Below are positions 32 to 37,645 of a stretch of DNA of 64,000 nucleotides, in pieces (position 1 is the stretch's first letter; every line of letters starts with the position of its first letter). The notes below the pieces were generated by a model, which searched no databases, was not told the DNA's origin, and saw only the letters and a list, made by a program, of their open reading frames with translations. This DNA is from a virus. Made by a program: the position numbers and the translations under genes. Location of the stretch: IMG/VR virus record IMGVR_UViG_3300045988_079613; one strand, given 5' to 3'.

Positions 32-547
32 ATGAAAACATATACAATTACATTACCGAAGAAAGAAGATACCGCAAAAATTTATAAAGATAATTTGTTG
101 AAACGAGTAATCACTGCTTACCCTTGGTTGACAGTAGATAGTAAATTTGATTATCCGTATTCCAATAATGGTGTAGAGTATGCATCTGCAGGAGATGTTA
201 TCACTCTTGGTTTGAGCAATACTCATAAAGTTAGCTGGCTTCCTAAAGAATGCACTAACTGTCCGTTTAAGTGTTGGAACGAAGATACTATTAATTTCGA
301 TCTTGAGAAAGAATTCTTTAAAGCAATTAATGCTCTTGATATATTTGCTAAAGAAAACTATCCGTTTAAGAAAGATTATGACTTTGAAGACGAATTTGGT
401 ACCCCTATCAAGATCTTCGATAATTTCGTACAGATTGGATACGATATTATTCCAATTATGCCGGGTTCATTGAATCATTTGAAACCTAAAACAAAGAAAA
501 CTATTATCAATATCACGATTAAGATTAAAAATCGTGGTTTATTCTAA
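32..547 (+). CDS. hypothetical protein (171 aa)
   Basis: Uninterrupted ATG..TAA ORF. First gene of the co-directional plus-strand block. No motif recognised. Confidence 0.55.
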   Translation: MKTYTITLPKKEDTAKIYKDNLLKRVITAYPWLTVDSKFDYPYSNNGVEYASAGDVITLGLSNTHKVSWLPKECTNCPFKCWNEDTINFDLEKEFFKAINALDIFAKENYPFKKDYDFEDEFGTPIKIFDNFVQIGYDIIPIMPGSLNHLKPKTKKTIINITIKIKNRGLF

Positions 548-566
548 TAAAATAATTATTCCATAT

Positions 567-594
567 ATCAGAAACTTATCAGAAACTTATCAGA
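567..594 (+). promoter_or_regulatory. 2.5 tandem copies of ATCAGAAACTT in the intergenic region upstream of the ATPase gene
   Basis: Read directly: atcagaaactt atcagaaactt atcaga. The same TCAGAAA heptamer forms a perfect inverted repeat at 2095-2111. Confidence 0.35.
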
Positions 595-617
595 GGAATA
601 TAACATAAATAAGCTTT

Positions 618-1358
618 ATGATTGTATTACCAAAAGAAAAGATAAAAGCCAAGGTAGAAAATCCTAGATTTTTAATACTATTTGGCAAACCAAAAGCTGG
701 TAAAACTACTTTAGTATCTAGATTAGATAATAATCTAATTATAGACTTAGAAGGAGGATCAGAGTTTTTGGAAGCATTAGCTGTACAAGCTAGATCTGTA
801 AAGGATTTAGGAGATATAGCTAGTGCTATTAAAGAAGAAATTAAACAAACAGGTAAAAAACCTTATAAGTATATTACTATAGATAATGCTTCTAGATTAG
901 AAGAAATGTGCATGAGTTTTGCAGTACAATTGTATAAGGCTACTCCAATGGGAAAAGGTTATACCGGTTCTGATGTTAGAACACTGCCAAATGGATCTGG
1001 TTACTTATATTTACAACAAGCTGTAAGAAAAGTAATAGATATGTTTAAAGAACTATGCGATAATCTAATCCTAATTGGTCACTTAAAAGATAAAATGATT
1101 AATAAAGAAGGAGAAGAATTATCTGAAATGTCTCTTGATTTGGTAGGTAAACTTGCAAATATTATATGTGGTGAAGCGGATGCAGTAGGCTATGTATATA
1201 GAAAGAAGAATGAAACTCATATTTCTTTTGAAGGAGGAGATAATTCTGTAAGAGAAGCAAGAGCACCTCATTTAAGAGGAAAAAACATAGTAGTAGCAGA
1301 AAGTGATGCAGATAATGTAATTACTACTTATTGGGACAAAATTTATTTACCTGAATAA
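618..1358 (+). CDS. RecA-fold ATPase, Sak4/AAA_24-like (recombination/annealing-associated)
   Basis: Walker A FGKPKAGKTT near the N-terminus. About 245 aa. Lies directly upstream of an SSB-like gene, as in many phage recombination modules. Confidence 0.65.
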   Translation: MIVLPKEKIKAKVENPRFLILFGKPKAGKTTLVSRLDNNLIIDLEGGSEFLEALAVQARSVKDLGDIASAIKEEIKQTGKKPYKYITIDNASRLEEMCMSFAVQLYKATPMGKGYTGSDVRTLPNGSGYLYLQQAVRKVIDMFKELCDNLILIGHLKDKMINKEGEELSEMSLDLVGKLANIICGEADAVGYVYRKKNETHISFEGGDNSVREARAPHLRGKNIVVAESDADNVITTYWDKIYLPE

Positions 1359-1371
1359 AAATGATTAAGTT

Positions 1372-1974
1372 ATGATTTACAGCACAGAATTAGCAAACAA
1401 AATAGAAACTACAGACGTTTTAAAAAGTAAATACTTAGAAGCAGGTATTCACGAAGACGTACAGCTTGTAGGAGCAAAAGTTGACAAGTCTATTAATGGA
1501 AATATCTTTCTTGAGGTAAAATTTACTAAAGAAGGACAAGATTTAACTCATACAGAATGGGAATCTACTAAGAAACCTGGAGAATCTGATGAAGAATGTC
1601 AAACTAGAGGTAGTAAACAGGTTAAGAGAATTATGCAAATTCTTGAATGTTTCTACCCTAAAGAAGCGCTAGTATTTGCTGGTTCTTCTTATAAAGACTT
1701 TGTTGATTGGGTTGCTATGATGCTAAATGCAGCAAACAAGAATATTTTACTTAGAGTAAAGATAGTATATAATAAAAAGGGATATACTACATTGCCTAAT
1801 TATTGTAAGTTTACTTTTATCGAACCAATGAATCTTCCTGAAGGAGAGAAGAGTAAAATTGCAGAATTGAGTATAGACCAATTTACTAAACCTATAATAG
1901 CAGATGTAGAAACTAAGGATACTAATCCTCTAATGGAAACATCTTCTGATCCAACAGGTGATCTTCCTTTTTAA
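1372..1974 (+). CDS. single-stranded DNA-binding protein-like
   Basis: The C-terminus ...SSDPTGDLPF resembles the acidic D-(I/L)-P-F tip of SSBs. Position between ATPase and primase. Confidence 0.5.
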   Translation: MIYSTELANKIETTDVLKSKYLEAGIHEDVQLVGAKVDKSINGNIFLEVKFTKEGQDLTHTEWESTKKPGESDEECQTRGSKQVKRIMQILECFYPKEALVFAGSSYKDFVDWVAMMLNAANKNILLRVKIVYNKKGYTTLPNYCKFTFIEPMNLPEGEKSKIAELSIDQFTKPIIADVETKDTNPLMETSSDPTGDLPF

Positions 1975-2021
1975 AGAAGAAAATAAAATAACAGTAGCTA
2001 CCTAGAGCATAAGCTAGGAAT

Positions 2022-2082
2022 ACGTAGGTTAGTGCACCGCACTATGAAAAATGAGTGATACACAATAGTGCACAACCTACGT
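2022..2082 (+). terminator. long imperfect hairpin followed by a short T-run (terminator or structured RNA)
   Basis: ACGTAGGTT-a-GTGCAC ... GTGCAC-AACCTACGT (15 bp with one bulge), then TTT. An alternative inner hairpin is TAGTGC-acc-GCACTA. Confidence 0.35.
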
Positions 2083-2088
2083 TTTAAA

Positions 2089-2176
2089 TAGGAGTTTCTG
2101 ATATTCAGAAATATGGTATAAATAAGAAAAAGATGTATTTCTCATTTATTATAGAGTTCGAATCTCTATACTCCTA
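2089..2176 (+). other. tRNA-like remnant: perfect 7-bp acceptor-like stem plus canonical T-arm, but no credible D or anticodon arm
   Basis: TAGGAGT (2089-2095) pairs with ACTCCTA (2170-2176). ATAGAG-TTCGAAT-CTCTAT (2151-2169) has a T-psi-C-type loop. The interior does not fold into a cloverleaf and has no CTA anticodon. Confidence 0.25.
2095..2111. promoter_or_regulatory. perfect inverted repeat TTTCTGA-TAT-TCAGAAA upstream of the primase gene
   Basis: Read directly. Shares the TCAGAAA heptamer with the 567-594 tandem repeats. Confidence 0.35.
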
Positions 2177-2191
2177 CTAAAAATATATCAT

Positions 2192-3172
2192 ATGATTTAC
2201 GATACAACGAAAATAATAAAAGATGATGATAATATTACTTTAGATTATATACTTTCTAAAGTAACAGAGTATGATATATATGCTGCGTATATAGGTAATT
2301 TTAAAGTAGGAATGATTTATAATAGTCCATTTCGTAAAGATAGAAACCCATCATTTGGATGTTTCTATAGTAAGACTAGTAAACAATTAATGTTTAAAGA
2401 TCATGGAACTGGAGAATGTGGTAATGTTATTAAATTTGTAAGCATTTATACAGGATTAACAAATTATAATGATATACTTAAGGATATTATTCAGAAACTT
2501 AAAATTACTAAAGATACGCAATTAGTTAGCTCTAAGCAATATATACCGTCAACTGAAACAGTAATTGGTGTAGTACGTCAGAATTTCACTGATACTGACA
2601 TCAATTACTGGAAGCAGTTTAATATTACGGTAGATACTTTAAAGAAGTTTGGAGTAAGTAGTATAAAATACTACCTATGTAATGGCATAGTAAAAAGCAT
2701 TTATAAAGATGAAAATCCAATGTACGCATATAAGGTGTACAATCACTTTAAGATATATAAACCTTTAGCAGACAAATATACGAAATGGCGTAATAATTTA
2801 ACTGAATATGATATTCAGGGATATAAACAATTACCTAAAACTGGGGACATACTTATTATAACAAAGAGTATGAAAGACGTCATGTGTTTATATGAAATGG
2901 GGATACCAGCAATATCTCCTTCTTCAGAGTCAACTTTTATACCCAATAAGGTTGTAGAACAGCTTAAGAAGCGTTTTAAGCGTATTATTATAATGTTTGA
3001 TAGAGATGAAGCTGGAGTTAAATATCTTCGTAAAATGAGCCTTAAAACAGGTTTAGAAGGATTACTAGTCCATAAAAAATTTAAAGCAAAAGATATATCT
3101 GATGCGATTAAAGCAAATGGATTTGAGAAAGTAAAAAAATGGTTATATGAAGAAATAGAAAAAACAAGGTAG
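2192..3172 (+). CDS. DNA primase (TOPRIM domain)
   Basis: C-terminal half has TOPRIM-type acidic motifs (ITKSMKD..., IIMFDRDEAG). N-terminal FRKDRNPSFGCF looks primase-like. It is the only plus-strand gene whose ORF ends in TAG (3170-3172), with a TAA 7 codons downstream (3191-3193). Confidence 0.7.
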   Translation: MIYDTTKIIKDDDNITLDYILSKVTEYDIYAAYIGNFKVGMIYNSPFRKDRNPSFGCFYSKTSKQLMFKDHGTGECGNVIKFVSIYTGLTNYNDILKDIIQKLKITKDTQLVSSKQYIPSTETVIGVVRQNFTDTDINYWKQFNITVDTLKKFGVSSIKYYLCNGIVKSIYKDENPMYAYKVYNHFKIYKPLADKYTKWRNNLTEYDIQGYKQLPKTGDILIITKSMKDVMCLYEMGIPAISPSSESTFIPNKVVEQLKKRFKRIIIMFDRDEAGVKYLRKMSLKTGLEGLLVHKKFKAKDISDAIKANGFEKVKKWLYEEIEKTR

Positions 3173-3527
3173 AGTTCGAAACGCAACCCCTAATGAATAT
3201 GAAGGAATTAAATTTCGAAGCAAACTTGAAACCTATACATACAAAAAGCTGAAAGAAGCAAATATCCTAGCAGATTATGAAATGCATAGGTATGAGCTAC
3301 TTCCAGCTTTTACTTTTAACAATAAAAAATATAGAGCAATAACCTATTTACCAGACTTTGTTGGTAAAGGTTTTATAATTGAATGTAAAGGCTTTCCTAA
3401 TGAAGCTTGGCCTTTGCGTGAAAAGCTATTTAACTATTATTTGTACACACATGAGCCTAAGACAGCGTTCTATGTAGTACATACACAGAAACAAGTTGAT
3501 GAGTTAATCAACAAGTTAAAAACATAA
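3147..3527 (+). CDS. DUF1064-like PD-(D/E)xK nuclease (start requires decoding TAG at codon 4)
   Basis: The track ORF (3282-3527) lacks the conserved N-terminal part. The same frame upstream reads ATG AAG AAA TAG AAA AAA CAA GGT ... NEYEGIKFRSKLETYTYKKL, which resembles the typical DUF1064 opening. YLPDF...IIECKG supplies the D...ExK core. Confidence 0.5.
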
Positions 3528-3529
3528 AA

Positions 3530-4378
3530 ATGAATATTATGGCAGAATTTATTAAGATCGGAAATGAGATTACAGTTAAACCTAAGTTAGAAGGTATTTC
3601 TTATGAACTCATAAGTAACAAAGTATACGATCTAGAGTATGATAGAATGCAAGGTAGATCTTATCTCAAAGAAAATGGAGATTTGAATATGCCAAAGAAA
3701 TTATACAAACTAGAAGAAGATAATAAATTTATTAAACGTGTATTAAGTTATTTTAATTCTGATAATTCTGGAAAGACAACCGGTATATTACTTGCAGGTA
3801 CTAAAGGTACAGGCAAAACAATGCTCTCTAAACGTATTGCCTTAGAAAGTAATTTACCTATTATTATAGTAGCAAACGACTACCCTGCTAATAAACTTAC
3901 TAGTTTCTTTAAACATTTTACTACTCCTGTAGTAGTTATGTTTGATGAGATTGAAAAAAATACTTATTGGTGGGAAACTAAGGATCTGTTAGGATTCTTA
4001 GACGGTGTAGAAGCTACATCTAAAAAACTGGTATTGATGACCTGTAACAAAACAGATCAGATAGACGATAACTTCTTTGATCGTTGTTCACGTGTTCGTT
4101 ATTTTAAAGAATATGAAGCAAACTCTAATTCTGTATTTGTACGCTGTATAGCAGAAGATAAAGGAATAAAGAATATAGATGAAGTTGTGAATTTCATCGT
4201 TGAACATATAGAAGTTAAATCATTTGATAATATTTCAGCATTCTTAGATGAAGTTGTTCTCTTCGAAGATATTCCATTAGACAAATTAGCTAAAGATATG
4301 AATCTTAGCTTAAATGGAGTAATAAGAACAGGAACTAATATTTCTGATGAGGATGAAATAAATGAAGTTCTATTCTAA
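3530..4378 (+). CDS. AAA+ ATPase
   Basis: Walker A GTKGTGKTM, Walker B VVVMFDEIEK, sensor-like LMTCN. Confidence 0.7.
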   Translation: MNIMAEFIKIGNEITVKPKLEGISYELISNKVYDLEYDRMQGRSYLKENGDLNMPKKLYKLEEDNKFIKRVLSYFNSDNSGKTTGILLAGTKGTGKTMLSKRIALESNLPIIIVANDYPANKLTSFFKHFTTPVVVMFDEIEKNTYWWETKDLLGFLDGVEATSKKLVLMTCNKTDQIDDNFFDRCSRVRYFKEYEANSNSVFVRCIAEDKGIKNIDEVVNFIVEHIEVKSFDNISAFLDEVVLFEDIPLDKLAKDMNLSLNGVIRTGTNISDEDEINEVLF

Positions 4379-4429
4379 TGATACTATTTTATTCAATACT
4401 TATTTATAAACTTACTAAATTCTTACAAT

Positions 4430-5305
4430 ATGAAAATATGTGGAATTAGTGATATACATGGGAATCTTTATAATGAGATTCCTAAATGTGATGTATTGTG
4501 CATTTGTGGTGATATAGTTCCTTTAAACATTCAGAGAGATATGAAAGAATCTGATAAATGGTTTACTGAAGACTTTACTAAATGGATAAATAATTTACCG
4601 TGTAATAAAGTAATAATAGTACCTGGGAATCATGATTTCTATCTTGAAAGAATGTATATTGAAGGAACATGGGACGTAGTTAAAGCACTTATGAGAGCTA
4701 TAACTAATGATAAAGTAGAAATGCTTATTGATGAGTCTTATACTTATAAAGGAGTTAGTTTCTACGGAACGCCATGGATAAACCCTATTTTGTTTCAGCA
4801 AGGAAGGTGGGCATTTGAATTACAAGATAATGAACTATATAATAAGATACCAAAATGTGATATACTAATTACTCATGATAATCCTAATTATAATAACGCA
4901 TTAGGTTATTATACTTTTGGTAAAGCCAAAGTTCATTTATTTGGACATTGGCATGAAGGAGTATCTAATAAAAATCACAGAAAATATAACTGTTCTATAC
5001 TAGATAATAGTTATAACTTTAAAAAGGATTTAAATATAGTAACATTAGATTTTATGACACAAGAAGGAATTGCATTAAAAACTGAATTTATAGAGTATTT
5101 AAGACTTGTTATAAAAGACTATTTTAAACTAAATGGAAATAAACCTCTTACTCTAGAAGAGTGTAATACTTTTCTTGATATGCAGAAAGAGTTTATAGAA
5201 GCTCTAGAAGAAGACAATAACGAATGGGATACTTCTGGGAGTTTCTGTAGTGATTATAATGAGGAAGAAGATACTCCTAAATTAGAATTAGAAGAAGCAG
5301 CATGA
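4430..5305 (+). CDS. calcineurin-like metallophosphoesterase
   Basis: Motifs ISDIHGN, CGDIVP, PGNHD, GHWH in canonical order. Confidence 0.8.
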   Translation: MKICGISDIHGNLYNEIPKCDVLCICGDIVPLNIQRDMKESDKWFTEDFTKWINNLPCNKVIIVPGNHDFYLERMYIEGTWDVVKALMRAITNDKVEMLIDESYTYKGVSFYGTPWINPILFQQGRWAFELQDNELYNKIPKCDILITHDNPNYNNALGYYTFGKAKVHLFGHWHEGVSNKNHRKYNCSILDNSYNFKKDLNIVTLDFMTQEGIALKTEFIEYLRLVIKDYFKLNGNKPLTLEECNTFLDMQKEFIEALEEDNNEWDTSGSFCSDYNEEEDTPKLELEEAA

Positions 5306-6273
5306 AAATAGAAATTCCGTATTATGAAGATAACACGCGAATATCAAATTCAGCAATAGGGTGGTTCTTGAAAAAAGGACCACGTTACCTCAAGGATATG
5401 CTTGACGGTAAAGAAGAAGGTATAAGTGGAAAATATCTTGAAAAAGGTACTATGATACACATGTACTTACTTCAGCCAGATGAATTCTGGCATAATTATA
5501 TGATTATTGACTATGAGAAGCCTAAAACAGCACAGCAGATTGCATTTTGTGAACGTTATTTTCATTCTACAGAATTATTAGAAGAAGATAAATTACTAGA
5601 TGCATATAAATCTGCATACTCTGGCAATAATATGTCTAAAGATGCAATGTTAAAGAAAGCAAAAGAGTTACAACTCAAGTTTGCAGAGTATATTGAATTT
5701 CTAGACAAAAATCAAACATTTACAGTAATATCATTTGCTGATTTAAATATGCTTAAACGAATAGAAGAGAATATTAATAATCACAAAAAAGCAAAAGATT
5801 TACTTACAAATAATCCTGGTTGGGACTGTAATAATGAGTTTCATATAAACTGGGAATCAGAAAAACAGAAGATATCTTGTAAGTCCTTATTAGACAGAGT
5901 TAAAATTGATTTTGTTAATAAGAAGATAATCCTTATAGACTTAAAAACTACAGCAGATGTTTATAATTTTAAGCACTCTGTAGAAGAATATGACTACTAT
6001 AGACAAATTGCATTCTATATTTTAGCTCTTACATGGTATATGTCTGATCTAGGATATAATATAGAGGAGTTTGACTTAGAAGCATACATTATTGCAATTC
6101 AAAGCAATGGTAATAATGAAGTAAGAGTATTTAATATGTTAAACGAAAAAGAGTTATTGGACCGTAAAGACCTAATAGCAGATACTTTAACAGAAATTTC
6201 ATACCATTATCAGACAGGAAATTGGGACCATACTCGTGAATATTACGAAGGAAATGGAACTGAAGAACTATAA
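5302..6273 (+). CDS. PD-(D/E)xK exonuclease (RecB/Cas4/lambda-exo-like)
   Basis: IILIDLKTT (D-x-K) and YRQIAFY (QxxxY-type) motifs. ATGA overlap with the upstream gene. Confidence 0.6.
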   Translation: MKIEIPYYEDNTRISNSAIGWFLKKGPRYLKDMLDGKEEGISGKYLEKGTMIHMYLLQPDEFWHNYMIIDYEKPKTAQQIAFCERYFHSTELLEEDKLLDAYKSAYSGNNMSKDAMLKKAKELQLKFAEYIEFLDKNQTFTVISFADLNMLKRIEENINNHKKAKDLLTNNPGWDCNNEFHINWESEKQKISCKSLLDRVKIDFVNKKIILIDLKTTADVYNFKHSVEEYDYYRQIAFYILALTWYMSDLGYNIEEFDLEAYIIAIQSNGNNEVRVFNMLNEKELLDRKDLIADTLTEISYHYQTGNWDHTREYYEGNGTEEL

Positions 6274-6421
6274 AAATCTAAAACAATTAAAAGGCTCTGA
6301 TGAGAGCGCTATTGAAGCTATGTATAATAATATTATTGTTGATAATACTGAAGAAGAAGCAAAGTATTCTGCAGTAGAAGTAGATGAAGGGACTTGTGTA
6401 GAAGATGGAATTGACGCCTGA
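6236..6421 (+). CDS. small acidic hypothetical protein (61 aa)
   Basis: ORF overlaps both neighbours. Coding status uncertain. Confidence 0.3.
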   Translation: MNITKEMELKNYKNLKQLKGSDESAIEAMYNNIIVDNTEEEAKYSAVEVDEGTCVEDGIDA

Positions 6422-6824
6422 AGTAATTCTACTATCTCCTAGAGTATTAAGTAAAAGGAAACCCTTAGAACATAAGTCATTTAAAGGACTATATACTAGT
6501 CTTTACGACGAATATTCTAAGGGTTTTATTTATTTAGACTACGTATTCAACAATATTGAAGAAGAAAAAGATATCGAAGGTTGGCTTACTTGTGAAAAAA
6601 CGTATTTTAATAAGAGAATTTTCAATATTAATTCAAGTAAACATACTATATTTACTTTAAAATCTGAAGATAGTAGAGAACTAGAAGATTATAAACAAAC
6701 TGGTAATCTAGGTTTTGGAATAACAGATTGGTATCCTATCTTTCAGTTTTGGGGAGATAGAACAAAAGATATAAAAGATACTGTTTATAATACGATAACA
6801 GATTTAAATAATAGGTTTGAATAA
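6405..6824 (+). CDS. hypothetical protein (139 aa)
   Basis: Last ORF of the plus block. Followed by a terminator hairpin. Confidence 0.5.
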   Translation: MELTPEVILLSPRVLSKRKPLEHKSFKGLYTSLYDEYSKGFIYLDYVFNNIEEEKDIEGWLTCEKTYFNKRIFNINSSKHTIFTLKSEDSRELEDYKQTGNLGFGITDWYPIFQFWGDRTKDIKDTVYNTITDLNNRFE

Positions 6825-6829: not shown

Positions 6830-6860
6830 GGGCTGTTGTGAAACAGCCCTATCTTTTTAT
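6830..6860. terminator. bidirectional rho-independent terminator between convergent modules
   Basis: GGGCTGTT-GTGA-AACAGCCC (6830-6849), A-rich before and T-rich after. TAA 6822-6824 (plus gene) and TAA 6857-6859 (minus gene, if TAG is read through) flank it. Confidence 0.75.
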
Positions 6861-7456
6861 TCTCCAAGTATCTATTTTTTGTAATAATTTCTTTTACTTT
6901 GTATATCTTTTAATTCCTATATATTCCTAAATGGAGTAAGTTTTAAAAGGTTGCGCTCTTGTTCAGTCCATCCTTTATAAGCACCTCGCTTAATAGTAGC
7001 ATCATAATAAGTTTCTTTTAACCACCAGTACTTAATCCTTTCATATAATAAACTAACAGGATTAGAGAATAATTCAAACATATTACTAACATAGTCTGTA
7101 ATAGCAGAAGGTGACTTGATAATAGATGCCATATCCAGAAGATTATATGGAGCTAATGTTTCAAATTGCGATCTTATTATAGTATATGCCAGTAGTTGTT
7201 TAATGATGTTTTTCTTGTCGTCGTCCGCTGACTGCTCTAATAGCGGTCTAAGAAACCAAACAAGGCCTCCATATAATATACCTTCAAAGACCAATCTAGC
7301 CAAATTTTCTCTTACTAGAGGATCTTCTTGATTAAGTCTTTTATAAGTCTTAATTACGTTTTCATTGTTTTCTATAGCATTATCAAATAATCTTACTACA
7401 GTTTTGAATACTCCTTCTCTGTATCTCTAAGCTTGATAATCCCATTGTCTTGTCAT
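6857..7456 (-). CDS. hypothetical virion-module protein, or the C-terminal part of the 7523-11278 ORF
   Basis: Same reading phase as 7523-11278, separated from it only by one TAA (7523-7525). First ATG after that TAA is at 7456. Three in-frame TAGs (7421-7423, 6917-6919, 6872-6874). Ends at TAA 6857-6859 next to the terminator. Confidence 0.4.
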
Positions 7457-7522
7457 TAACCATCTCTCTTGTAAAACAACCGGTAAATATTGTCTGTGCA
7501 TCATAACAAACTATCCTGCCCA

Positions 7523-10500
7523 ATTAGCCAAAATCACAGGCTTTTGTAAAGAAGTAAGCTACCCATCGGCTGATTGTGCTAGAGTTTTGGCAATATAAGC
7601 TATTTTATTCATAGCCTCATCTACTGCTTTCTAGTTTGTTTTATCTTTTGCTACCATTTTACCACCTACAAATTCTACAGCATCATAGAATGAAGTTTTA
7701 TTTCCTAGATTCCAATCCATGTAATCGCCGGGAGCATAAGTAGGAAGTTTATGTTTTCTTTTATATTCCTCTCTACTCATAAAAATTTTTTTACCGCCTT
7801 CTTCTACTAGCTTAAAATTATGCATAACAGAAGCAAGAATCTATCCTTTTACTACATGATCCATTAATGAATATGGACCGAATGCCCAATGTTTAGTGAC
7901 AGCATTAACTAATTGCATTCTGTTTGTAGCATTTGGATTAATTTCTGCACCTATTTCGAAAAGTTCCATAGCTTGAGTTATGAATGTTTTTTTCCTAGAA
8001 ACTCCCAGAACGTTCGATATAGCAAAAAATGAATCTGCTACAATATCAAAGAACGCATGACCAGCATCTATAGGATTGTAATATCTTTGTATTAACATAT
8101 TTGTAATATGCTAATGTAAAGCTGTATAAGCCCCTGTTAACGCACAAGCAAGATTTAAACCTAGATTTCTAAGAGTACCTAACATCTTAAGTATAGATAA
8201 CATTTTTGTAATGTTAATTTCTCTTGGTTTACTTATATCATAAGTAAGTCCAAAAACATTGCCTTTATACGGAATCAAGCCTAATACTTTTCCAGTAGGG
8301 TTATCTCCATATCTTACACTAACGTCTTGAGTTTTTATATCATACAAATTCATGTCTATAAAGTTTTTAACGAATTTGTATGTATTACTGTTTCCGGTTT
8401 TTTCCTCTCCTCTTTTGTTAGTGTATTTAATACCTTGTACGTATCTTTTTAATATTTCTATTCTAGGTTGTATTTGAGTTTTATTTTTCCAACTTTCACA
8501 CGACTTATAGAACTATATTACTGAACCAACTAAATCCGCAGTTAAATACTCAGGATTATCTAATCTTTTAAGATAATATTGAGGTATTACATTTAATCTT
8601 TCTCCATTAGGTTTAGTGAGAGCTCTATTAAAACCAACATCATCGTTTCTACATGATATAAGATCTTTCCAATAATCAATAAACCCTTTAAATGCTCCAG
8701 ATATATAATTTCTTTTCCAACCTGCATGTATATATTTTAACAAACTACCAGATTTCTGTGGAACCCTATAAGGATAAGTCTTATGCAGGTTAGTTAACTT
8801 ATCGTTAGATTCTTTTATAGTATCTAAGATAGCTTGTCTAAGATTCTTTAGAGCCTCATTATTCATTACTTTATGATAATTCTTACTATTATCATAAGAC
8901 TCAACTATTTTACCATCTTCTATTACTTTAGATTTTGGTATCCAGTATTCATTCTATAAGTCTGGGTACTTTTCCTAAGTCTCATAGTAAGATTTGTTAT
9001 AGAATTTGGATTCTTTAGATACCTCTAGCCAGTTACTATTAGGAGCATATTCTATCAAACTTTTATCCTTTGGTACTACTTTTGTATACCATGCTTTTGG
9101 ATTTTTAATGTCATAAGCATTAGCTTTTAGCCACATTTCAGCAGATTCTGGATCTTCTAATACTACATTATAGTAATACTTTTTAAGATCCCTATACCAC
9201 TGTTCTGTTGGTATTGTCTCTGCAATGTCCTCAAATTTGGCATCTCCTTCTTGTATTTCAACTTTTTTGTTTTTTCTAATGATAGACATCTATCTAGACA
9301 ATCTTTGTATAGCAGCTTTAGAATTAGCTGACATATGATCTATGTCTATATTACCCGTCATATCATCCCTATGTTGATTTAATATAGATCTGCGCCTTTC
9401 TTGTAGTTCTGCGTATACAGGACCGTAATATTTTTTTTCTAGCTTTTCTAGTTTCTGATAAAACTCATCTTTATAGCGTACTTGAGAATTTCGTTCTAAC
9501 CATTTCTGTTTTTGTTCTTTTGTCAGATTTGGATCAGCCATAATTTTAGCTTTTTCCTCCTCATATGCTTTACTATTCTTAGTCATAGTAAGACCTTCAG
9601 ATAACTTCTTATTCAGTTCCTATAATTCTTCAGCTATTTTAAGCTTCTCTCCTTGCTTTTTAATACCTGTAGTATCATATAAACTAGCCAGTTGTTTTTT
9701 CTCAAGTAAATAAGCTCTATATGTGTTATATTCCTTATCGCTAAGTCTATCTAGATGTGCTATACCAGCAGAATCTCTAGTTTTATCTACTAGCTGTCGT
9801 ATTTTTAATTGAATCTCCTCTCTAGCTGCTACCGTACCTTCACTTAAATGATTAAACATATCATAATACTCTCTAGTATATCTTCTATCTGTATGTTTAG
9901 ATAACCATTCATTTCTTCTCTTATTATACTCAATACGCAGCTATCTATTTTCTGGAGCTTTTATATCAGTAAGATCTACACCTAATTCTGATGCTATTTT
10001 TTTCATAGCATCTGCATAGTTCTTTTCAAATTTACCATAGTTTCTAGCTCGTACTATATAACCAGTAGTATTACCATCATCATCTACTTCAAATAACATT
10101 CTCTGATTATATTTTCCAGCTTTACTAAGTAAATCCTCAAGTTTTCTTATAACCTGGTAAGTATTTCTATTTGTTTCTTCTTCTGCTTTATTGATTAAGT
10201 AGAATATTGTCTTAATAGAATCATTGTTTATCTTATCACCAGCACCTATATAGTATGTAAGCCAAGCTATATCTCTCTAAGATGGTGATGGATTAGACAT
10301 TGAATAGTCATAGATAGTTGAGGACTTTACTTCTAGACCTACTTGCTTTAAATTCTATCTAGCATTATCAGCTATTTTACCTTTTACTATAGAATAACCA
10401 TCAGTAAGCATAGCTTGGTAGTCTTTAGCTCTTTTAAGCATTCTATCAAGTATATATTCACCACTACTATCTTTTCCTATTATTTCTCTGTAGTTGTCTT

Positions 10501-11278
10501 TATATATTAATTGACTTACTATCTCATCTACTATATCATTATAGAAACCAAAGAAGTTCTGATCTAGATCATTCAACTTAGTATCATCTATGTCCAGTCC
10601 TTTTCTACGGACATTAACGAGATATTCGAAGGTAGGTCGCAATTCAAATCTTAAATTAGCTAAAAATTCATTAATGTTATCTAAATCTGATTTAAGACCT
10701 TCACTAATATTTGCAATTAGCCATTCTGATTCTTTTTTTATCTTAGTTCTAAGTTCTGCGTCAGGATTAGTATTTACTTTTAATCTTGACTATAAACCTT
10801 TCAGTATCTTTACATTTATGTCTCTTAAAATACTATCTAGTTCTTCCTTTTCTTTAGAATTATAATTATCTTTTGTCTATTCTAATCCTATTTCTAAGTC
10901 ATTGTAAGCCTAATCAACGCGTTCTCTTAAGTCTTTATCTGTGTCAAAAAAAGACTTAGCTTCTTCACTTAAAGAATCTTGTGATTGATACTCTAACACC
11001 TACTAAGCAGTTGGTTCTATAGTTAAATCTTTATAAGTATTCTTAAAACCAATTAAAAAAACTTTAGATTTTTCCCTGATAGCCATTTTAGAATCATTGT
11101 TAAAATGACTTAAAAGATCCTAATATAACTTAGAATCTTTACCTTCACTATCAAACTCTAAGCCATAACCATTATTTTCAGATAAGACATAATAGGCAGC
11201 ATCATAGCTACCTAATATGTCAGTATACTCTTTTAACTATGCCTTTATTTCAGGCAATTCTGTTCTTAAACACGTCAT
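7523..11278 (-). CDS. large virion-associated protein (about 1,251 aa with TAG read as sense)
   Basis: Nine track ORF fragments (7631..10642) share one phase. Every gap was hand-translated: only TAG interrupts. ATG 11278 overlaps the upstream TGA (ATGA). Confidence 0.6.
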
Positions 11279-14200
11279 GATTTCTTACAATGTTTTTTAC
11301 GTTTTTTACCTTCTTCTTTAAGGTTATTCAGATACTCATTTACTTCTGTAATACCTGTTTCAGAGTCCTACAAGGATCCTATAATATCATCTACCAACTC
11401 TGTAGAATCAAAATAGGATTCGTCAGGCATTGCATAATCTTCTCCAAATGTATCATTAGCTTCTTCAATTCCTCCTAACATTTGATCTATTTCACCAAAA
11501 TCTTCTATTGTAGTAGAATTATCCGAAGTATCTACAAAACTTAAAGAAGGATCGCTATCAATTGATTCTGGATCAGATTGTATTCCACTATCTCCAAATG
11601 ATTCAATTAATTCATTTTGAAGTTCTTGATCTAAATTGGAATACTCCTAAGTTTTACCAACTTCAATATTAGAATACTACTCATCCTTAACAAACTGAGA
11701 ATCTTTAATAGTTTTAATATATTTATCTACTATACTATCTATATCCTCAACGGTTTGTTTGATCATTGTGTCTGTAAACTTGTTATTCTCGAATGCAGAT
11801 TGTTCTGTACCATTTTTATATAACTCATATATAGAACTTGCTCCATTATTGAAACCTAACTTAGGTATAGCAACATATACAATGCCGATAGTATTACCGT
11901 CTGCATCTACTATTTGTCCAGATCTCTGGTATAATACCGTATTAGTAGATCTAGAACCTCCTATTTTTACAAACTTATTATTCTTATTTATGTCTGATCT
12001 ACCTAATGCAATAAATACAGTATTCACAGAACTATTAGTACGGTCTTTAGAACTAGCTAGATACATTGTATTAGATTTAGATTCTTCTCCATATCTAACA
12101 TCTACTTTTGGTATATACAATGGAACTACATCATTATCTGCCCAGTAATTTCTTACCATATTTAAATAGATAGAATCTGTTAGTTCTTCTAAAGTAGAAG
12201 CATCCTAAATTATATCTATATCATTCCTTATCAGTTTGTTCATTGCATCTTTTATAGAATCTAAATATCCAATCTATTGTTTGTATTCCATTGGAACTAC
12301 ATTAAAGAATGAATTAGGAGTTCTATTATCATAACTAGTAACAAATGCATATTTTACCAAATCTTCTGCCAACTCTCTGACCATTTCGTCATCATTTGTA
12401 AGAAGATCGTAAAATGCTGACCTAAGTCTATCTTCATAATATCTCGAATTATTTAAAGAAGAAGTAGCAGTAACTATTTTGTTAGCTTTGTTTTTATTAG
12501 ATATGGTAATACCTTGTAGATAATTTAATAAATCGTTAGTAATATTGCCCTATTCATCTACTAAAGTAACTAAATTAGGATCCTATTTATTCTTTCTAAT
12601 ATAATTCTTGACAGCATTAAGTCTGCTAGCTATATTGTCCTTACCAAATGCCATACTGTTTAACTGTTCATCAGACAATCTAATATCAGTACCAGCTATC
12701 ACTACTTTAGCACGAATTATACTCTCTACTTTCTCATTTATTTTTTTCACTAATTCTTTATTACTAGTAGGTCTATATAACTATATAGAAAGAGAACCAT
12801 TAACTTGCTATGGATAATTACCACCTCTTAAATTATGCATTATACTCGTGAATATAGTCTTATAACCATTGGTAGCTCCAAATACTTGAGTTTTAAGTAT
12901 ATTATTAGCTAAATCCATAGCATATACTAATTTCTTATTTAAGAACGTCTTATTAAAGTAGTCCTCAAGCCCATTAAGATCCTCTCTACCTTCAGTATCA
13001 GGAGTAGAGAAGTCCTGTTGATGGTCTTTTATAAATGTCTGATATGAATTATAAAAGTTCTATAATTGAGTAATGTTATTACCATACTTTTTAGTATCTA
13101 TCTGAGAACGTTGAACTAAGTCTGCCATAGTTTGAGCATCTCCACTTAATTCATTATAAGCTGTAAGTACGATTAACTACATTTTAATATCCTGTGGAGT
13201 TACCTAGCCTCTTCTAAATGCATCTAATGTACGAGACAATCTATCCTTGTCAAATGCTAATTTTTTATCTTCATCTGTTATCTTAAGAATAGATTCCTTA
13301 TAAGACTATGATATAGGATAATTATTTAACATTTTAGTATATTTGTCTATCAGTCTACTAATTATAGTATTATCATACTACTGTTTAGATCCAATAGCAC
13401 CATTATTAGCAATCTTAATATTAGCAAATTCCTTTAATATAGGTTGAGCTAAGAAGAAGAACGTATTTTCTCCCTTTCCACCACGTAACAATAAACTAGT
13501 CATATTATATGTTACTTGATTCACATTAAGTTTAATAATGTAAGGATCTTTAGCTACATCGACATGAGCATTAATCATTGCAGATAACCAGTCTAATATT
13601 TTGAAACCATCCTGTCCATTGATTTCATCAAATTGACCAAGACCATAAATATTGTTATGTGAAAATTTCATATGTAGATGTGTGGCTTGAGTCAAGCAAT
13701 GGTTAGTAGAGTTAAGAGCAAAAGGTGCTATACCAGCTTTACCCCAAGTATATTCCATCTTTCTATACTCTTGGAACGATGGCATTAATTCATACATATA
13801 ATCTGCTTCTTTCATCTCATCTACACTTACTTTTGGAAGTATTTCCTTAGTAAGGATACCGGTTAATGTATCAATAGATGCTCTAGTTTCAGACAATGTT
13901 TTTTCATCAGATATTACTAGCGTATAACTATCTAACAGTTTATTTATCAGAGCTCCTTTAGATTGGTCAGAATAGGTTTTAGCATCTTCTTTCCAAGTAT
14001 ATCTCTGATGCGTATTAGGATCATACGAATATGTAGCTATATACAATTTATCAATATCAAAGTCAGAACCAGTCATAGCAGTAAATTCATCAGGTACTAC
14101 TATGGTATCTCCGGTCTATGCTGGTAAAACATCAGCTACTATGAAAGAGAAAGTAGATGACAAACCCTGAGTAGGTATACGATAACCTATACCATATGGA

Positions 14201-17200
14201 TCACTTTGACTACCTATTATATTATTATCCAGCAACCATTTTCTTATTGCTACGTAACCCTATTCCTATACATCCTATGGTACTACATCTCTAAAGAAGT
14301 TAGTACTAAGCATTACTTCCATACTACCTCTTTTAGGATCGAAACTAAGTTTTTTACCATCATTAAAAGGTCTAGTATCTTCGTTAGCATCTGTTATTAC
14401 ATCATTAGCTTTAAAACCAAATGATGCCATTTGAATAGCAGAACCTCCTGGAGTATTTACGTCTATTACTTCTTTATTTATTAAAGAAATTATTTTACTT
14501 TCAATCCAATTACGAACGCTAAGTGCTGCTATAGGAGCTTTAAAGTTACCCTTACTGTCAAGTTTTAATGCATCTATTATTTCTTGAGACATTCCATTTC
14601 CAGTAGCTTCTTCTACTAAATATCTAGACAAAGCAGCTTTATCTATAGAACCGTCTAATTTGAAGAATCTACCTTTCTTTTTCTTTCCATTGATAGTTCC
14701 TCCTTTTAAAGAAGTATAACCTAACGTAGACAATGCTTTAATACAACCAAATATATCCTTTTTTATTTGAGATCCAGATACATGCTTTCCTTTGTTATGA
14801 CCATAGTATCTATCATCTACTACATTACCCATACCAATTTTTATCGCTTGAGTACCGAATGATCTATCTGTATGTTCATGTGGATCTGTATTAAGCTGCA
14901 ATCTTAACTGTTTAATATCTTGAATTCTAGTTGTTAATCCATCATTAAGTCTTTCAACGGCATTACCATTCGTAACTATCATAGTAGATGGCTTATTTAA
15001 GCCTTCTTTATTGAAACTTGTATTTCTGTTGTCATTATAGGCTTTGAACTTATCTTGAGGAGCACCGACCTTAACTGCAGATTCAAACAATAACATGTCT
15101 ATCACACCCAATTCTTCATTATTCATTCTGTCATATAAATACTTATTATCCGCTTTGGCTAGTATCTTAAACATAGGGAATAATGCCATTTTATCGAATG
15201 TAGGTACATTTAATTTAGCTACAGAATCATAGTAATCACCAAAATACATCATCTTTAATGGTTTTATTGATGCTCTTAGAGCTTTACTATACAATTCTGG
15301 ATTACTAAGAACATCATCTGAAGATTCTAGTATATTATATGCTTCTTCTATCTCAGGAGACCATTCTCCTAAAGCTTGCATAATTCTCTTATACATAGCT
15401 GGTCTGATATATACAGCAGCATCTGCTTGATTTATATTGCCACTATTATTCTCATCATCATATGCATAAGGATTTGCAGCTTTCTCAGACTGTTTATCAA
15501 CAAATTTCTTGGAATCATCAGATAAACTGTCATAAGATTCTTGCATTCTATCTTCATTCTTAGTAGCATCAAATAGCTATTTATCTGTCATGTCTGGATG
15601 CTCTTTCTGTAACATAGTTCTTATGAAAGATGCTCTAAATATCTATTTCAATGAATCGTGATATTCAGACCCTATATTGTTATCCTACATAACAGCACTA
15701 ACGAATTTAGTATCATTTCGTGGATCTCCTTCTCCCCAGTATGTTCTGAGATTAGTACCAGTAGATAATACAGAAGACAAACGTTTGATTTTATCCACAT
15801 CTCTCTGGAATACACCTACTTCTTTGCTGGACTTCCACTTATAAAAAGCAGGATCTCCAACAAAACACTTTTCTACTTCTTCTATAGATATTGCGCAATT
15901 AGTTACAAAATTAGCTATTATACTATATATAGCATCATTAGAATTTATATCGTCATAAGATGATTGAAACTATGCTTTATATTTTGCATATATATTAGTA
16001 GGAAGATTACCAGAAGTAAGTTTACCAGATGAATCCCTAGATATTACTCCTAGTTTAATAGCTTCTTCTACTTCTTGATCTACTCTTCTTAATAACATTC
16101 TATTAAGAATATCATGCATACCAGCTACATCTTCTATGAACAATTTTCTGATATTGTCTAAAGTTTCATTAATTAACTTTGGATCATTGCTTTCTTCTGC
16201 AAATTGTAATAGATCATTTAATGAACGTATTTCTCCATCAGGCATTATTATTTGGTTAAAATATCTGAATCTACCACCATTTCCGCCTGGTTTCATTTTA
16301 CCATCTTTCCCTATTTTGCCGTGATAGTTAGAATAATATCTCGATCTTCCTTGTTCTACGTCAGACTTTGTATTATAATATTCAGTAATAGCATTAAATT
16401 CGTCTACAAAATAATTATAGAATATATTTAAAGTATTTTTACTAAATCTAAAATCAACTGGTACTTCTATTGTTTCCCCTTCAAAATTTGTAGTTGTAAC
16501 AACAGAATGTAGAAAATCTTTAGGAACATCTATTCCTTCTATGCTATACCATGTCTTTTTATCAGACATTGTAGGTAAAACTAATCTATTATTTTCAGAT
16601 AAAGTTAACTTTGTAATATAATCCTCCAATGGAGTTATACCAAAATAATCCCTACTAGTATCTGTTAACTCATCATTAATAGCTAATAAAGTATGCAGTT
16701 TTAATTTAGGTTTATTTTTTCCTAGCAGTGCTTTTACAATAAGACTATTCTTACAATAAGGAGTATTGTTTAAGTTCTGCAATTTTCCATATGCGTTAGT
16801 GTTTAACCATCTGATCTAATCGGACATATAGTTATTCTATGTGATAGGATATACTAAGCTACCATCTGCCCCAGTTACACTAAATTCTTCTGGAGTAGGA
16901 TGTGTTTCTCCATATGCAATAGCCATTAAGTTCAATACGCTGTTTGGATTATAATAATTAAATATCTTATCTGCACTAATAGTCACTCCTCTAAATTTAG
17001 TAACTAAAGTTTTATTAGCCGCCATTGCTCTAATATTCTCATATACAGAGTTTCTTATAGAATTTATAGCTGCTCCATTTTTAGAGTCTGTATTCTTAGT
17101 TCTGAATATCAAGTTAAAAGCGTCTACACCATCTATTCCAGTAGATTCCTTAGTACTTATACTACCTAATAAATAAGTAAGAGCATCATTGTCAAAATTG

Positions 17201-36796: not shown

Positions 36797-37645
36797 TTAG
36801 CAACCACATCCATCGTTGTATCCGAATGCTCCATACGCGCCATAGCAGCAGTTAGGATTCGGAACTACGTATGCAGGAGTAGGACACGGAGTCTTTAATT
36901 GAGAAACAATATTAGCTGTCTGAGCTTGAGTAAGGGCTGCTGCTTCTAGAGCTGCTTTTTCACTACGCAATGTATCAATCTTGCTTTGCATTTCACGCAT
37001 TTCAAGCTGACAGAATTTATCGTTGATTATTTGAGTTTGAGCGTCTATTTTAGCACCCAAAATATTAAATTGAGTATTAGCGTTGCTAGTCAGAGTATTC
37101 GTCTGGTTTACTATAGCTAACTGACTTTCATAACCCTGAGTAGTTATAGCATTACGAATATCGCAGCAGCAAGAAGCCAACTGAGATGCAAGGCTTGCAT
37201 TACCGCTCTGGATAGCGTTGATTACTTGTGCACCTGTCAATTTAGTATCACAAGCGATCTGGCTAACACTAGTATTAATAGTGTTCAGTGCATTCTGTAC
37301 TGCATTAATATCACAATTCAAAGTATTAGACAAAGTAGCGATAGCTTCTTTGTTACCATTGATTGCTTGCATTAGCAGATTAGTGTTGGCATCAGTATTT
37401 AATTGAGAAGCAAGCTGTGAAGCTTCACCGCTTCTGTTACCGAAGCCATTACCACCCCAACCGCCCCAAACAAAGAACAGTAAGATGATCCAGATCCACC
37501 AACAACCGTTGCCACCGAAACCTCCATTGTTATTCATCATAGCCATGAGAGCTGCAGGGTCCATACTTTTATTACCATTCTGCATTAATGCAGCTAGACC
37601 AGCGTCAAAACCACGGTCTTGAACAATAATTTTATCTTCTAACAT
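36797..37645 (-). CDS. membrane-anchored coiled-coil protein with Cys-rich C-terminus (282 aa, TAG-free)
   Basis: Hydrophobic segment CWWIWIILLFFVWGGWGG, a long N/Q/A/T heptad-like region, and a C-terminal NPNCCYGAYGAFGYNDGCGC. Confidence 0.65.
   Translation of the reverse strand: MLEDKIIVQDRGFDAGLAALMQNGNKSMDPAALMAMMNNNGGFGGNGCWWIWIILLFFVWGGWGGNGFGNRSGEASQLASQLNTDANTNLLMQAINGNKEAIATLSNTLNCDINAVQNALNTINTSVSQIACDTKLTGAQVINAIQSGNASLASQLASCCCDIRNAITTQGYESQLAIVNQTNTLTSNANTQFNILGAKIDAQTQIINDKFCQLEMREMQSKIDTLRSEKAALEAAALTQAQTANIVSQLKTPCPTPAYVVPNPNCCYGAYGAFGYNDGCGC

What the first reader, a model, noticed from the sequence alone, without database searches (positions are those of the whole stretch)
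3147..3193. The only TAGs in the plus-strand replication module cluster at the primase/nuclease junction, a possible translational timing switch
About 2,200 plus-strand codons are TAG-free except in two places. (i) The primase ORF ends in TAG 3170-3172, backed up by TAA 7 codons later. (ii) The DUF1064-like nuclease has its conserved N-terminus (NEYEGIKFRSKLE) upstream of the first internal ATG, and can only start at ATG 3147 if TAG 3156-3158 (codon 4) is decoded (MKK-TAG-KKQGRV...). If suppression is only available late, TAG would stop the primase early in infection and block nuclease synthesis until the code switch. This fits the proposed regulatory use of recoding in phages.
Basis: inference. 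Interest (0 to 1): 0.7.

Follow-up and report, generated by a model that had tools for sequence, protein, structure and literature searches.

The report
Amber-gated resolvase gene in a crAss-like phage
In this gut phage, which reads the stop codon TAG as glutamine in its late genes, the only replication-block gene with an internal TAG is a small DNA-junction-cutting nuclease. That TAG sits at codon 4 and is kept across many relatives, so the nuclease can probably be made only once the phage's own suppressor tRNA is working.

Summary
The window is a TAG-recoded crAss-like phage (Suoliviridae, Buchavirus). Late-strand genes carry 266 in-frame TAGs. The plus-strand replication genes carry none, apart from the primase stop (TAG 3170-3172, backup TAA 3191-3193) and codon 4 of the DUF1064 Holliday-junction-resolvase gene (ATG 3147, TAG 3156-3158).

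No ATG, GTG or TTG lies between that TAG and ATG 3282. All homologues start upstream of the invariant NATPNEY-FRSKLE block.

New evidence: across 104 unique resolvase sequences from relatives, 87 carry a TAG in the short basic N-terminal leader. It occurs in many sequence contexts, some with no overlapping gene. Five neighbouring replication genes have 0 TAG in about 89,000 aligned codons. TAG is 59% of Gln codons in the leader, 12% in the rest of the gene and 33% in late genes.

The closest relative carries a tRNA(CUA) at the head of its TAG-rich late block.

The nuclease gating idea is therefore well supported, but its timing is untested. The primase TAG is a lineage-specific ordinary stop with a nearby backup and is not part of a switch. 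This is a new, clean instance of a mechanism already proposed for recoded phages.

The parts
2192..3172 (+). DnaG-type primase CDS (326 aa) ending in TAG 3170-3172 under the standard code
   Evidence: ORF list. Pfam Toprim_2 and Zn_ribbon_DnaG. Annotated 'DNA primase' in cr56_1, cr109_1 and others.
3173..3193 (+). 7-codon read-through tail of the primase (Q-SSKRNP) closed by backup stop TAA 3191-3193
   Evidence: RefSeq relatives annotate the primase through to this TAA. The TAA is embedded in the nuclease codons CCT AAT.
3147..3527 (+). DUF1064 / Holliday-junction-resolvase-like PD-(D/E)XK nuclease CDS, 126 aa, with TAG as codon 4
   Evidence: Pfam DUF1064 7e-11. PHROG 190 'Holliday junction resolvase' 3.6e-14. 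824 homologues of 116-138 aa. Annotated from this ATG in cr109_1, cr113_1 and cr60_1.
3147..3149 (+). Start codon of the nuclease, the only ATG in the open frame (opens at 3135) upstream of the conserved domain
   Evidence: The region is unstructured and A-rich.
3156..3158 (+). In-frame amber codon (codon 4), the proposed translational gate
   Evidence: Leader TAG conserved in 87 of 104 unique homologous genes. It lies in the basic N-terminal tail; the six residues that follow it (KKQGRV, the first residues modelled) have pLDDT below 50.
3180..3230 (+). Invariant N-terminal block N-A-T-P-N-E-Y-x-G-I-K-F-R-S-K-L-E (Glu28 at 3228-3230), upstream of the first internal ATG
   Evidence: Alignment A1 invariant columns. 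Pfam profile positions 9 onward.
3282..3284 (+). Internal ATG (Met46), the rejected alternative start
   Evidence: No homologue starts here.
3351..3389 (+). PD...ExK nuclease motif (Pro69-Asp70 ... Glu79-Cys80-Lys81)
   Evidence: Read from the sequence. Invariant in A1. Aligns with the PDF...ETKG segment of T7 endonuclease I, PDB 3cae, weakly (E 0.36).
3486..3488 (+). Gln114 codon CAG, a site that is TAG in close relatives, showing TAG = Gln in this gene family
   Evidence: Column counts are TAG 18, CAG 47, CAA 32.
6375..6401 (+). Three TAGs in frame just upstream of ATG 6405 of the last plus-strand gene. Probably non-coding, and not part of the gate.

Best explanation
The window belongs to a Buchavirus-like crAss phage that reads TAG as glutamine in its late genes. 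The 126-aa DUF1064 resolvase-type nuclease is encoded inside the standard-code replication block, overlapping the end of the primase gene. Its reading frame begins ATG-AAG-AAA-TAG.

Under the host code, a ribosome starting at ATG 3147 makes only Met-Lys-Lys and terminates, so no nuclease is produced while the co-oriented replication genes are translated. Once the phage suppressor tRNA(CUA) is active, TAG is read as Gln in a disordered basic tail where the residue is probably unimportant, and full-length nuclease is made from mRNA that is still present.

The likely purpose is to withhold a junction-cutting enzyme during replication and recombination, and to supply it when branched DNA must be resolved for packaging.

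Shown: the start site, the need to decode TAG, the gene-specific and leader-specific conservation of TAG, and the presence of the suppressor in the nearest relative. Inferred: that the TAG is kept by selection, that suppression comes late, and the biological purpose.

The primase TAG is simply its stop codon. After the code switch the primase gains 7 residues and stops at TAA.
For: 1. Start and decoding. There is no canonical start between the TAG and 3282. The DUF1064 profile and the invariant residues extend upstream of 3282. All 120 listed homologues start with Met plus a K/R-rich leader 6-25 residues before NATPNEY. TAG aligns with CAG/CAA at codon 114.

2. Gene specificity. Across about 86 related loci, five neighbouring replication genes have 0 TAG in about 89,000 aligned codons. 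Mre11 has 1, and the primase has only its terminal TAG. The nuclease has 108.

3. Leader specificity. TAG is 7.6% of leader codons and 59% of leader Gln codons. The figures are 0.25% and 12% in the gene body, and 33% of Gln codons in the window's late genes. Only 3 of 32 late genes have a TAG in codons 2-12.

4. Stability. In pairs at 90% or more nt identity, leader-TAG presence agrees in 757 of 757 comparisons. Body TAG sites differ in 86 of 193.

5. Overlap is not required. The TAG is present where no gene overlaps the leader: cr56_1, L097, L080 and cr125_1.

6. Suppressor. cr56_1 has a tRNA with anticodon CTA at 92120-92199. It lies between a TAG-poor small-gene block and the TAG-rich terminase/portal block.

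7. Suppression must be efficient late. One ORF carries 78 TAGs, so a single TAG acts as an on/off gate rather than a dose limiter.

8. Middle-gene mRNAs persist to the end of infection in crAss001 (PMC8375218).

9. Precedents. In-frame recoded stops are proposed to delay an endonuclease embedded in an early gene (Borges et al.). A T4 review lists late genes carried on early/middle transcripts that are translationally repressed, and cites the Barth et al. 1988 gene 49 (endonuclease VII) paper among its sources (PMC2988022).
Against: No expression data exist for this phage or any Loutivirinae member, so the timing of the suppressor is unknown. In cr56_1 the tRNA lies just downstream of a putative early operon and might be made early.

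The gate is not universal among recoded relatives. Buorbuivirus (cr4_1 type, 8 unique sequences), the Oafivirinae (cr273, cr131, cr130, cr7) and L092 lack a leader TAG. It is therefore dispensable.

Many leader TAGs share the DNA motif GAAGAAATAG and lie in the overlap with an upstream ORF. They probably descend from one or a few ancestral TAGs and may be partly held by the other reading frame.

My pair counts are not phylogenetically independent.

The Holliday-junction specificity of DUF1064 proteins is an annotation, not tested here. The Foldseek matches were only weak.
Confidence: 0.6

Rival explanations
1. Neutral codon choice. The nuclease is translated when suppressor is already present, and TAG is just one of three Gln codons. 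Its position in the leader reflects a Gln-containing basic tail, shared ancestry of one old TAG, and constraint from the overlapping upstream reading frame. There is no regulatory function.
For: Relatives carry further TAGs at codons 41, 114, 116 and 123 that toggle with CAG/CAA. The shared motif GAAGAAATAG and overlap with the upstream ORF occur in most contexts. Several recoded lineages lack any leader TAG.
Against: This does not explain why five neighbouring genes on the same strand have 0 TAG in about 89,000 aligned codons. It does not explain why TAG is 59% of Gln codons in the leader but 12% in the body. It does not explain why the TAG persists in leaders with no overlapping gene. Leaders of non-recoded or ungated relatives often have no Gln at all (MPKSEGRV, MEKSKGRV, MNKKI), so Gln itself is not required.
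Confidence: 0.25
2. Dose limiter rather than timer. Incomplete suppression at the single TAG keeps the level of a potentially toxic nuclease low throughout infection.
For: Nucleases are commonly kept at low levels. T4 homing endonucleases are down-regulated by several translational devices (PMC2988022). A codon-4 stop is the cheapest place to abort translation.
Against: Late ORFs with 78, 24, 23 and 20 TAGs require near-complete suppression per codon once the switch has occurred. A single TAG would then reduce yield very little.
Confidence: 0.1
3. The nuclease starts downstream of the TAG, either at ATG 3282 or at a near-cognate codon such as ATT 3207. The TAG merely closes a 3-codon upstream mini-ORF.
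For: Under code 11 the only canonical ORF is 3282-3527.
Against: That start deletes the invariant N12 to E28 block, including FRSKLE. No homologue starts there. The near-cognate codons are not conserved: Ile21 is ATT, ATA or GTx in relatives. RefSeq relatives annotate the gene from the upstream ATG.
Confidence: 0.03
4. Primase-nuclease fusion made by +1 slippage on the A6 run 3159-3164.
For: The nuclease frame is +1 relative to the primase frame. An A6 run lies just before the primase stop.
Against: In relatives the nuclease is a stand-alone gene. It is separated from the primase by a 52-nt gap (cr56_1) or a 213-nt gap (cr131_1), or by other genes (HNH in cr125_1, ATPase in cr118_1, small ORFs in cr52_1, cr4_1 and cr6_1), always with its own ATG. 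There is no stimulatory RNA structure (z = 0.24).
Confidence: 0.01
5. Sequencing or assembly error, or a decaying pseudogene.
For: None beyond the presence of a stop codon under code 11.
Against: The same codon-4 TAG is found in dozens of independent assemblies. The protein is under strong purifying selection, with 74% mean column identity and intact catalytic residues.
Confidence: 0.01

Closest known systems
Stop-codon recoding as a regulator of late-gene translation in alternatively coded phages (Borges et al. 2021/2022, bioRxiv 10.1101/2021.08.26.457843)
   Same: A phage infecting a standard-code host keeps its replication genes code-11 compatible and places in-frame TAG in genes that should wait for the suppressor tRNA. 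That paper already proposes that an intron homing endonuclease sitting in an early gene of Agate phages is held back by in-frame TGA.
   Different: Here the gated gene is a core recombination nuclease, not a lysis, structural or selfish gene. The gate is typically a single codon in the first 3-10 codons, conserved across a subfamily, in a gene body that is otherwise TAG-poor. The paper text does not contain 'resolvase'.
Phage T4 late genes carried on early/middle transcripts, with translation repressed by an RBS-sequestering hairpin (soc, e, 25, 26, homing endonucleases). A review, PMC2988022, cites the Barth et al. 1988 paper on gene 49 (endonuclease VII) regulation among its sources.
   Same: A gene lying in an early/middle transcription unit is kept untranslated until late by a post-transcriptional device. 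That endonuclease VII is needed late for debranching DNA before packaging is from my own knowledge.
   Different: The device in T4 is an RNA hairpin plus a late promoter, not a codon. No comparable structure is predicted here. The review's printed gene list reads '39', so I infer from the cited title that gene 49 is the gene meant.
Dual-code-compatible ('soft switch') early blocks of code-15 crAss-like phages (Yutin et al. 2021, PMC7886860; described via Pfennig et al. in bioRxiv 10.64898/2026.08.21.746148)
   Same: The primase TAG with a backup TAA 7 codons later, and four cr56_1 replication-strand genes ending in TAG with nearby backups, give nearly the same protein under code 11 or code 15.
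   Different: The nuclease is the exception inside such a block. It gives a 3-residue peptide under code 11 and a 126-aa enzyme under code 15.
DUF1064 (PF06356), PHROG 190 'Holliday junction resolvase', and T7 endonuclease I-like PD-(D/E)XK nucleases
   Same: Significant profile matches and an E...PD...ExK motif. There is weak sequence similarity to T7 endonuclease I over the catalytic segment.
   Different: There is no significant structural match in the PDB (best Foldseek E = 0.05, PvuRts1I; VRR_NUC next). Junction specificity is not established here.

Membership tests
DUF1064 (PF06356) nuclease family | Score above Pfam's gathering cutoff over most of the profile | tested here: met
   42.9 bits against a cutoff of 24.7. 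Residues 16-98 match profile positions 9-100 of 117. PHROG 190 at 3.6e-14.
DUF1064 (PF06356) nuclease family | PD-(D/E)XK catalytic residues (N-terminal Glu, PD, ExK) | tested here: met
   E28, P69-D70 and E79-C80-K81 are invariant in 24 diverse homologues.
DUF1064 (PF06356) nuclease family | PD-(D/E)XK fold confirmed by structure comparison | tested here: inconclusive
   AF2 model with pLDDT 88. The top Foldseek hits are PD-(D/E)XK nucleases but at E >= 0.05.
Holliday junction resolvase (functional class) | Structure-specific cleavage of four-way junctions | not testable with these tools
   The only evidence is annotation in RefSeq relatives and PHROGs.
Genetic code 15 (TAG = Gln) phage | Conserved long genes interrupted by many in-frame TAGs and restored when TAG is read as sense | tested here: met
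   ORF total rises from 15.4k to 26.7k aa. Example: 11275-24738 is 4,487 aa with 78 TAGs.
Genetic code 15 (TAG = Gln) phage | TAG aligns with CAA/CAG in homologues | tested here: met
   Nuclease codon 114 is TAG 18, CAG 47, CAA 32. The database homologue P0010 begins MKRQRKKKEGKV, where the cr53_1 DNA reads MKR-TAG-RKKKEGKV.
Genetic code 15 (TAG = Gln) phage | Suppressor tRNA with anticodon CUA in the genome | tested here: inconclusive
   None in the 64-kb window. Present in the closest relative, cr56_1, at 92120-92199, a region outside the part of the genome covered by the window.
Recoding-based translational gating of late functions (Borges model) | Gated gene carries in-frame recoded stops while surrounding early/middle genes avoid them | tested here: met
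Recoding-based translational gating of late functions (Borges model) | Preferential use of TAG over CAA/CAG relative to background | tested here: met
   Leader 59%, against 33% in late genes and 12% in the gene body. This holds for the leader only, not the whole gene.
Recoding-based translational gating of late functions (Borges model) | Protein appears later than its mRNA and later than co-transcribed neighbours; suppressor activity rises late | not testable with these tools
   There are no expression data for this lineage. The only analogy is crAss001 RNA-seq.
Programmed ribosomal frameshift fusion | Fusion architecture and slippery site conserved in relatives, with a stimulatory structure | tested here: not met
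   The nuclease is a stand-alone gene with its own ATG in relatives. Fold z-score is 0.24.

The most novel reading that the evidence does not exclude
A single amber codon placed in the first ten codons of a resolvase-type nuclease is a selected, subfamily-wide 'code-switch timer'. It turns one cistron of a replication operon into a late protein without any change in transcription. It would be the smallest natural example of gene-specific temporal control by genetic-code switching, and a functional analogue of the delayed translation described for late T4 genes carried on early transcripts.
Probability: 0.5. Interest if true: 0.65.

Novelty: new member of a known kind. Interest (0 to 1): 0.5.

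Why it matters
The idea that phages use stop-codon recoding to time translation rests mostly on module-level correlations, with late blocks recoded and early blocks not. This case offers a one-codon, one-gene test. The gene is surrounded by TAG-free neighbours, and a TAG-to-CAG change would be synonymous after the switch and de-repressing before it. That makes the hypothesis directly testable by reporter assays, proteomics or phage engineering.

The case also suggests which function, junction resolution, these phages need to postpone. It is also a practical warning for annotation. Code-11 or mixed-code gene callers will truncate or miss this gene, as happened in cr52_1.

Tried and rejected
- Alternative starts. 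There is no ATG/GTG/TTG between 3159 and 3281. The near-cognate codons ATT 3207, CTG 3249 and ATC 3264 are inside or after invariant residues and are not conserved.
- Frameshift fusion with the primase. Rejected from gene order in relatives and the absence of RNA structure.
- A hairpin-type gate as in T4. None was found (z = 0.24).
- A second TAG-bearing gene (6300-6824) in the block. Distant homologues begin at the Met equivalent to 6405 and the extension is poorly conserved, so it is probably not coding.
- The leader TAG as merely a consequence of the primase C-terminal EEIEK codons. This is partly true for the window lineage, but the TAG is also present in four contexts without overlap.
- Structural confirmation of a resolvase fold. 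Foldseek gave only weak hits.
- Literature search for a prior description of an amber-gated resolvase or DUF1064 gene. Nothing was found in the searchable library, which is not exhaustive.
- Suppressor tRNA in the window. None was found.

Full report
**What the window is**

The 2.5 kb around the finding is 92.5% identical to crAss-like phage cr56_1. It is 80-86% identical to nine other records, mostly Suoliviridae/Loutivirinae. GC content is 32.6%.

Reading TAG as sense raises the summed length of ORFs of at least 100 aa from 15.4k to 26.7k aa. It fuses minus-strand fragments into genes of up to 4,487 aa. Under that code the minus strand (6857-63748) carries 266 in-frame TAGs in 18,618 codons, and none of its 32 genes of at least 100 aa ends in TAG.

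The plus strand (32-6824) is a replication/recombination block:
- an AAA_24 ATPase
- a DnaG-type primase
- a DUF1064 nuclease
- an AAA ATPase
- an Mre11-like phosphoesterase
- a PD-(D/E)XK exonuclease
- three genes of unknown function

No tRNA is present in the window.

**The observation**

The sequence is exactly as described. The primase ends ...E-K-T-R-TAG(3170-3172), followed by S-S-K-R-N-P-TAA(3191-3193). In the +1 frame, ATG 3147 is followed by AAG AAA TAG(3156-3158). The frame then stays open to TAA 3525-3527.

The first canonical start after the TAG is ATG 3282. With TAG read as Gln, the 126-aa product matches DUF1064 from residue 16 (profile position 9) and PHROG 190 'Holliday junction resolvase'.

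In an alignment of 24 diverse homologues, N12, F23, S25, K26, L27 and E28 are invariant, and all lie upstream of Met46. Every one of the 120 listed database homologues begins with Met plus a short K/R-rich leader ahead of NATPNEY.

Excluding the nuclease, the plus-strand genes have 1,978 codons, 40 CAA/CAG and no internal TAG. At the late-gene TAG share of Gln codons (33%) the chance of this is about 1e-7.

RefSeq relatives annotate a longer gene there. However, homologues at 48% identity start at the Met right after the last TAG. The extension is only about 60% identical between Buchavirus lineages whose gene body is about 89% identical. I therefore treat it as non-coding.

**What relatives show**

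I read the same junction in these sources:
- six RefSeq Loutivirinae genomes
- eleven further Suoliviridae genomes
- about 145 IMG/VR loci

Nearly every Loutivirinae lineage, and the Uncouvirinae cr115_1 and cr125_1, has a TAG between the nuclease ATG and the conserved block. The TAG sits at varying positions in varying sequences:
- MKKq
- MTq
- MKRq
- MKQKKKq
- MRRKKq
- MKRKKKq
- MKKNqKKq
- MqKNq
- MRKqRKKK
- MRQKKSIAq
- MKRLTKKKGq
- MKPKNKKKq
- and others

Of 104 unique nuclease sequences, 87 have a leader TAG. Of 34 distinct leader peptides, 24 carry one.

I mapped the window's proteins onto about 86 loci by BLAST. Five neighbouring replication genes have 0 TAG in about 89,000 aligned codons. 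The Mre11-like gene has 1 in 13,431. The primase has 20, all at its terminus. The nuclease has 108 in 10,819. The convergent late gene has 1,576 in 79,108.

Within the nuclease, TAG accounts for 7.6% of leader codons and 59% of leader Gln codons. In the body the figures are 0.25% and 12%. Only 3 of 32 late genes in the window have a TAG in codons 2-12.

Among sequence pairs at 90% or more identity, presence of a leader TAG never differs (757 of 757). Body TAG sites differ in 86 of 193 comparisons. Codon 114 is TAG, CAG or CAA in 18, 47 and 32 sequences. This also shows that TAG means Gln in this gene. These pair counts are not phylogenetically independent.

**Limits of the pattern**

Many leader TAGs share the DNA motif GAAGAAATAG. 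They lie in the 26-62-nt overlap with whichever ORF is upstream, either the primase or one of several inserted small ORFs. They are therefore probably homologous, and they may be partly constrained by the other reading frame.

The TAG is nevertheless present in four contexts with no such overlap: cr56_1, L097, L080 and cr125_1.

Some recoded lineages lack it: Buorbuivirus (cr4_1 type), four Oafivirinae, and L092. Bearivirinae cr6_1 has a TAG only at codon 33. Non-recoded Boorivirinae and cr118_1 have none.

Leaders without TAG often have no Gln at all, so the amino acid itself does not seem to be required. In the AlphaFold model (pLDDT 88) the residues just after the TAG are disordered.

**The primase TAG**

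Only 20 of 86 loci end the primase in TAG. Others use TAA or TGA, and cr53-type genomes have CAA at the homologous position.

In the window the TAG is formed by the nuclease codons GGT AGA (Gly-Arg). In cr56_1, the plus-strand genes upstream of the primase (5,377 codons) contain only four TAGs. All four lie 0-8 codons before a TAA or TGA, so they are ordinary stops with close backups. Other TAGs in TAG-poor blocks of relatives are mostly C-terminal in the same way.

The primase TAG is thus a normal, dual-code-tolerant stop. Its closeness to the nuclease TAG follows from the gene overlap and not from a joint switch.

**Mechanism**

cr56_1 carries a tRNA with anticodon CTA at 92120-92199 on the late strand. 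It lies between a TAG-poor block of small genes and the TAG-rich terminase/portal block.

Because single late ORFs contain up to 78 TAGs, suppression must be nearly complete once it is established. A single TAG therefore acts mainly as an on/off condition. The complete avoidance of TAG by the neighbouring replication genes implies they are translated when suppression is absent or unreliable. A TAG at codon 4 would then block the nuclease at that time.

In cultured crAss001, replication genes are 'middle' genes whose transcripts persist to the end of infection (PMC8375218). Delayed translation from existing mRNA is therefore feasible.

The biological logic is inference on my part. It runs parallel to phage T4, where late genes carried on early/middle transcripts are translationally repressed (PMC2988022). 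That review cites the Barth et al. 1988 paper on gene 49 (endonuclease VII) regulation among its sources.

No RNA structure is predicted at the junction. Start-site, frameshift and error explanations are excluded as detailed under the rival explanations.

**Comparison with what is known**

The general model, and even an example of an endonuclease inside an early gene held back by in-frame stops, are already published (Borges et al.). Yutin et al. noted that recoding is mostly in late genes. RefSeq already translates this gene through the TAG.

I found no paper describing a conserved N-terminal amber codon in the resolvase gene as the sole recoded gene of the replication block. I therefore rate this as a new member of a known kind. 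It is well documented comparatively, mechanistically plausible and experimentally untested.

Noticed in passing
window 6300-6404 (TAGs at 6375-77, 6381-83, 6399-6401), upstream of ATG 6405: Three in-frame TAGs sit directly before the start of the last plus-strand gene. If they are read through from ATG 6300, they add a hydrophobic 35-residue extension (MRALLKLCIIILLLIILKKK...). cr53-type relatives have TAG-AAA-TAG-AAA-TAG immediately before their ATG. A late-only longer isoform is not excluded.
   Followed up: partly
window 61184-62197, 60427-61179, 48092-49906, 40834-42075, 57992-58963, 36797-37645, 37678-38280 (all minus strand): Seven genes inside the TAG-rich late strand have no TAG at all. 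One is a GIY-YIG/NUMOD1 homing endonuclease, one has a RecA C-terminal domain and one is DUF7841. Four, including a 604-aa protein, have no Pfam match. The two homing endonucleases in the late block of cr56_1 are likewise TAG-free.
   Followed up: partly
L087 (cr56_1 1-24000), genes at 3294-3770, 8128-8595, 8573-8971, 11747-12139: The only TAGs in 5,377 replication-strand codons are 0-8 codons before a TAA or TGA. Genes that stop at TAG have a close backup stop, which gives almost the same protein under either code.
   Followed up: partly
L088 12121-12200 (cr56_1 92120-92199, minus strand): The suppressor tRNA (anticodon CTA, 80 nt) sits exactly at the boundary between a TAG-poor block of small right-end genes (2 TAG in about 1,400 codons) and the TAG-rich terminase/portal block. 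A TAG-free homing endonuclease lies immediately downstream of it.
   Followed up: partly
Primase-nuclease junction in relatives: L005 2471-2719, L155 3705-3983, L156 3697-4035, L158 3445-3984, L163 3778-4011, L164 3673-3987: Different small ORFs, including an HNH endonuclease, are inserted between the primase and the nuclease in different lineages. Several end at the same stop codon embedded in the nuclease's conserved Thr-Pro-Asn codons, which suggests an insertion hot spot.
   Followed up: no
L005 2673-3053 (cr52_1, NC_055888): The nuclease gene is intact (126 aa, TAGs at codons 7, 41 and 114) but is not annotated in the RefSeq record. The stretch is left empty between a hypothetical protein and the ATPase.
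   Followed up: yes
window 11275-24738 and 6857-11278 (minus strand): Two giant ORFs of 4,487 aa (78 TAGs) and 1,473 aa (23 TAGs) converge on the replication block. Their size and position suggest they are the crAss-type virion RNA polymerase and associated proteins, but I did not test this.
   Followed up: no
window late genes, base following TAG: The base after an in-frame TAG is A in 41% and C in 8% of cases. For CAA/CAG the figures are 29% and 13%. This is a mild context bias in the direction reported, to my knowledge, to favour amber suppression. All leader TAGs of the nuclease that I inspected are followed by A, G or T.
   Followed up: partly
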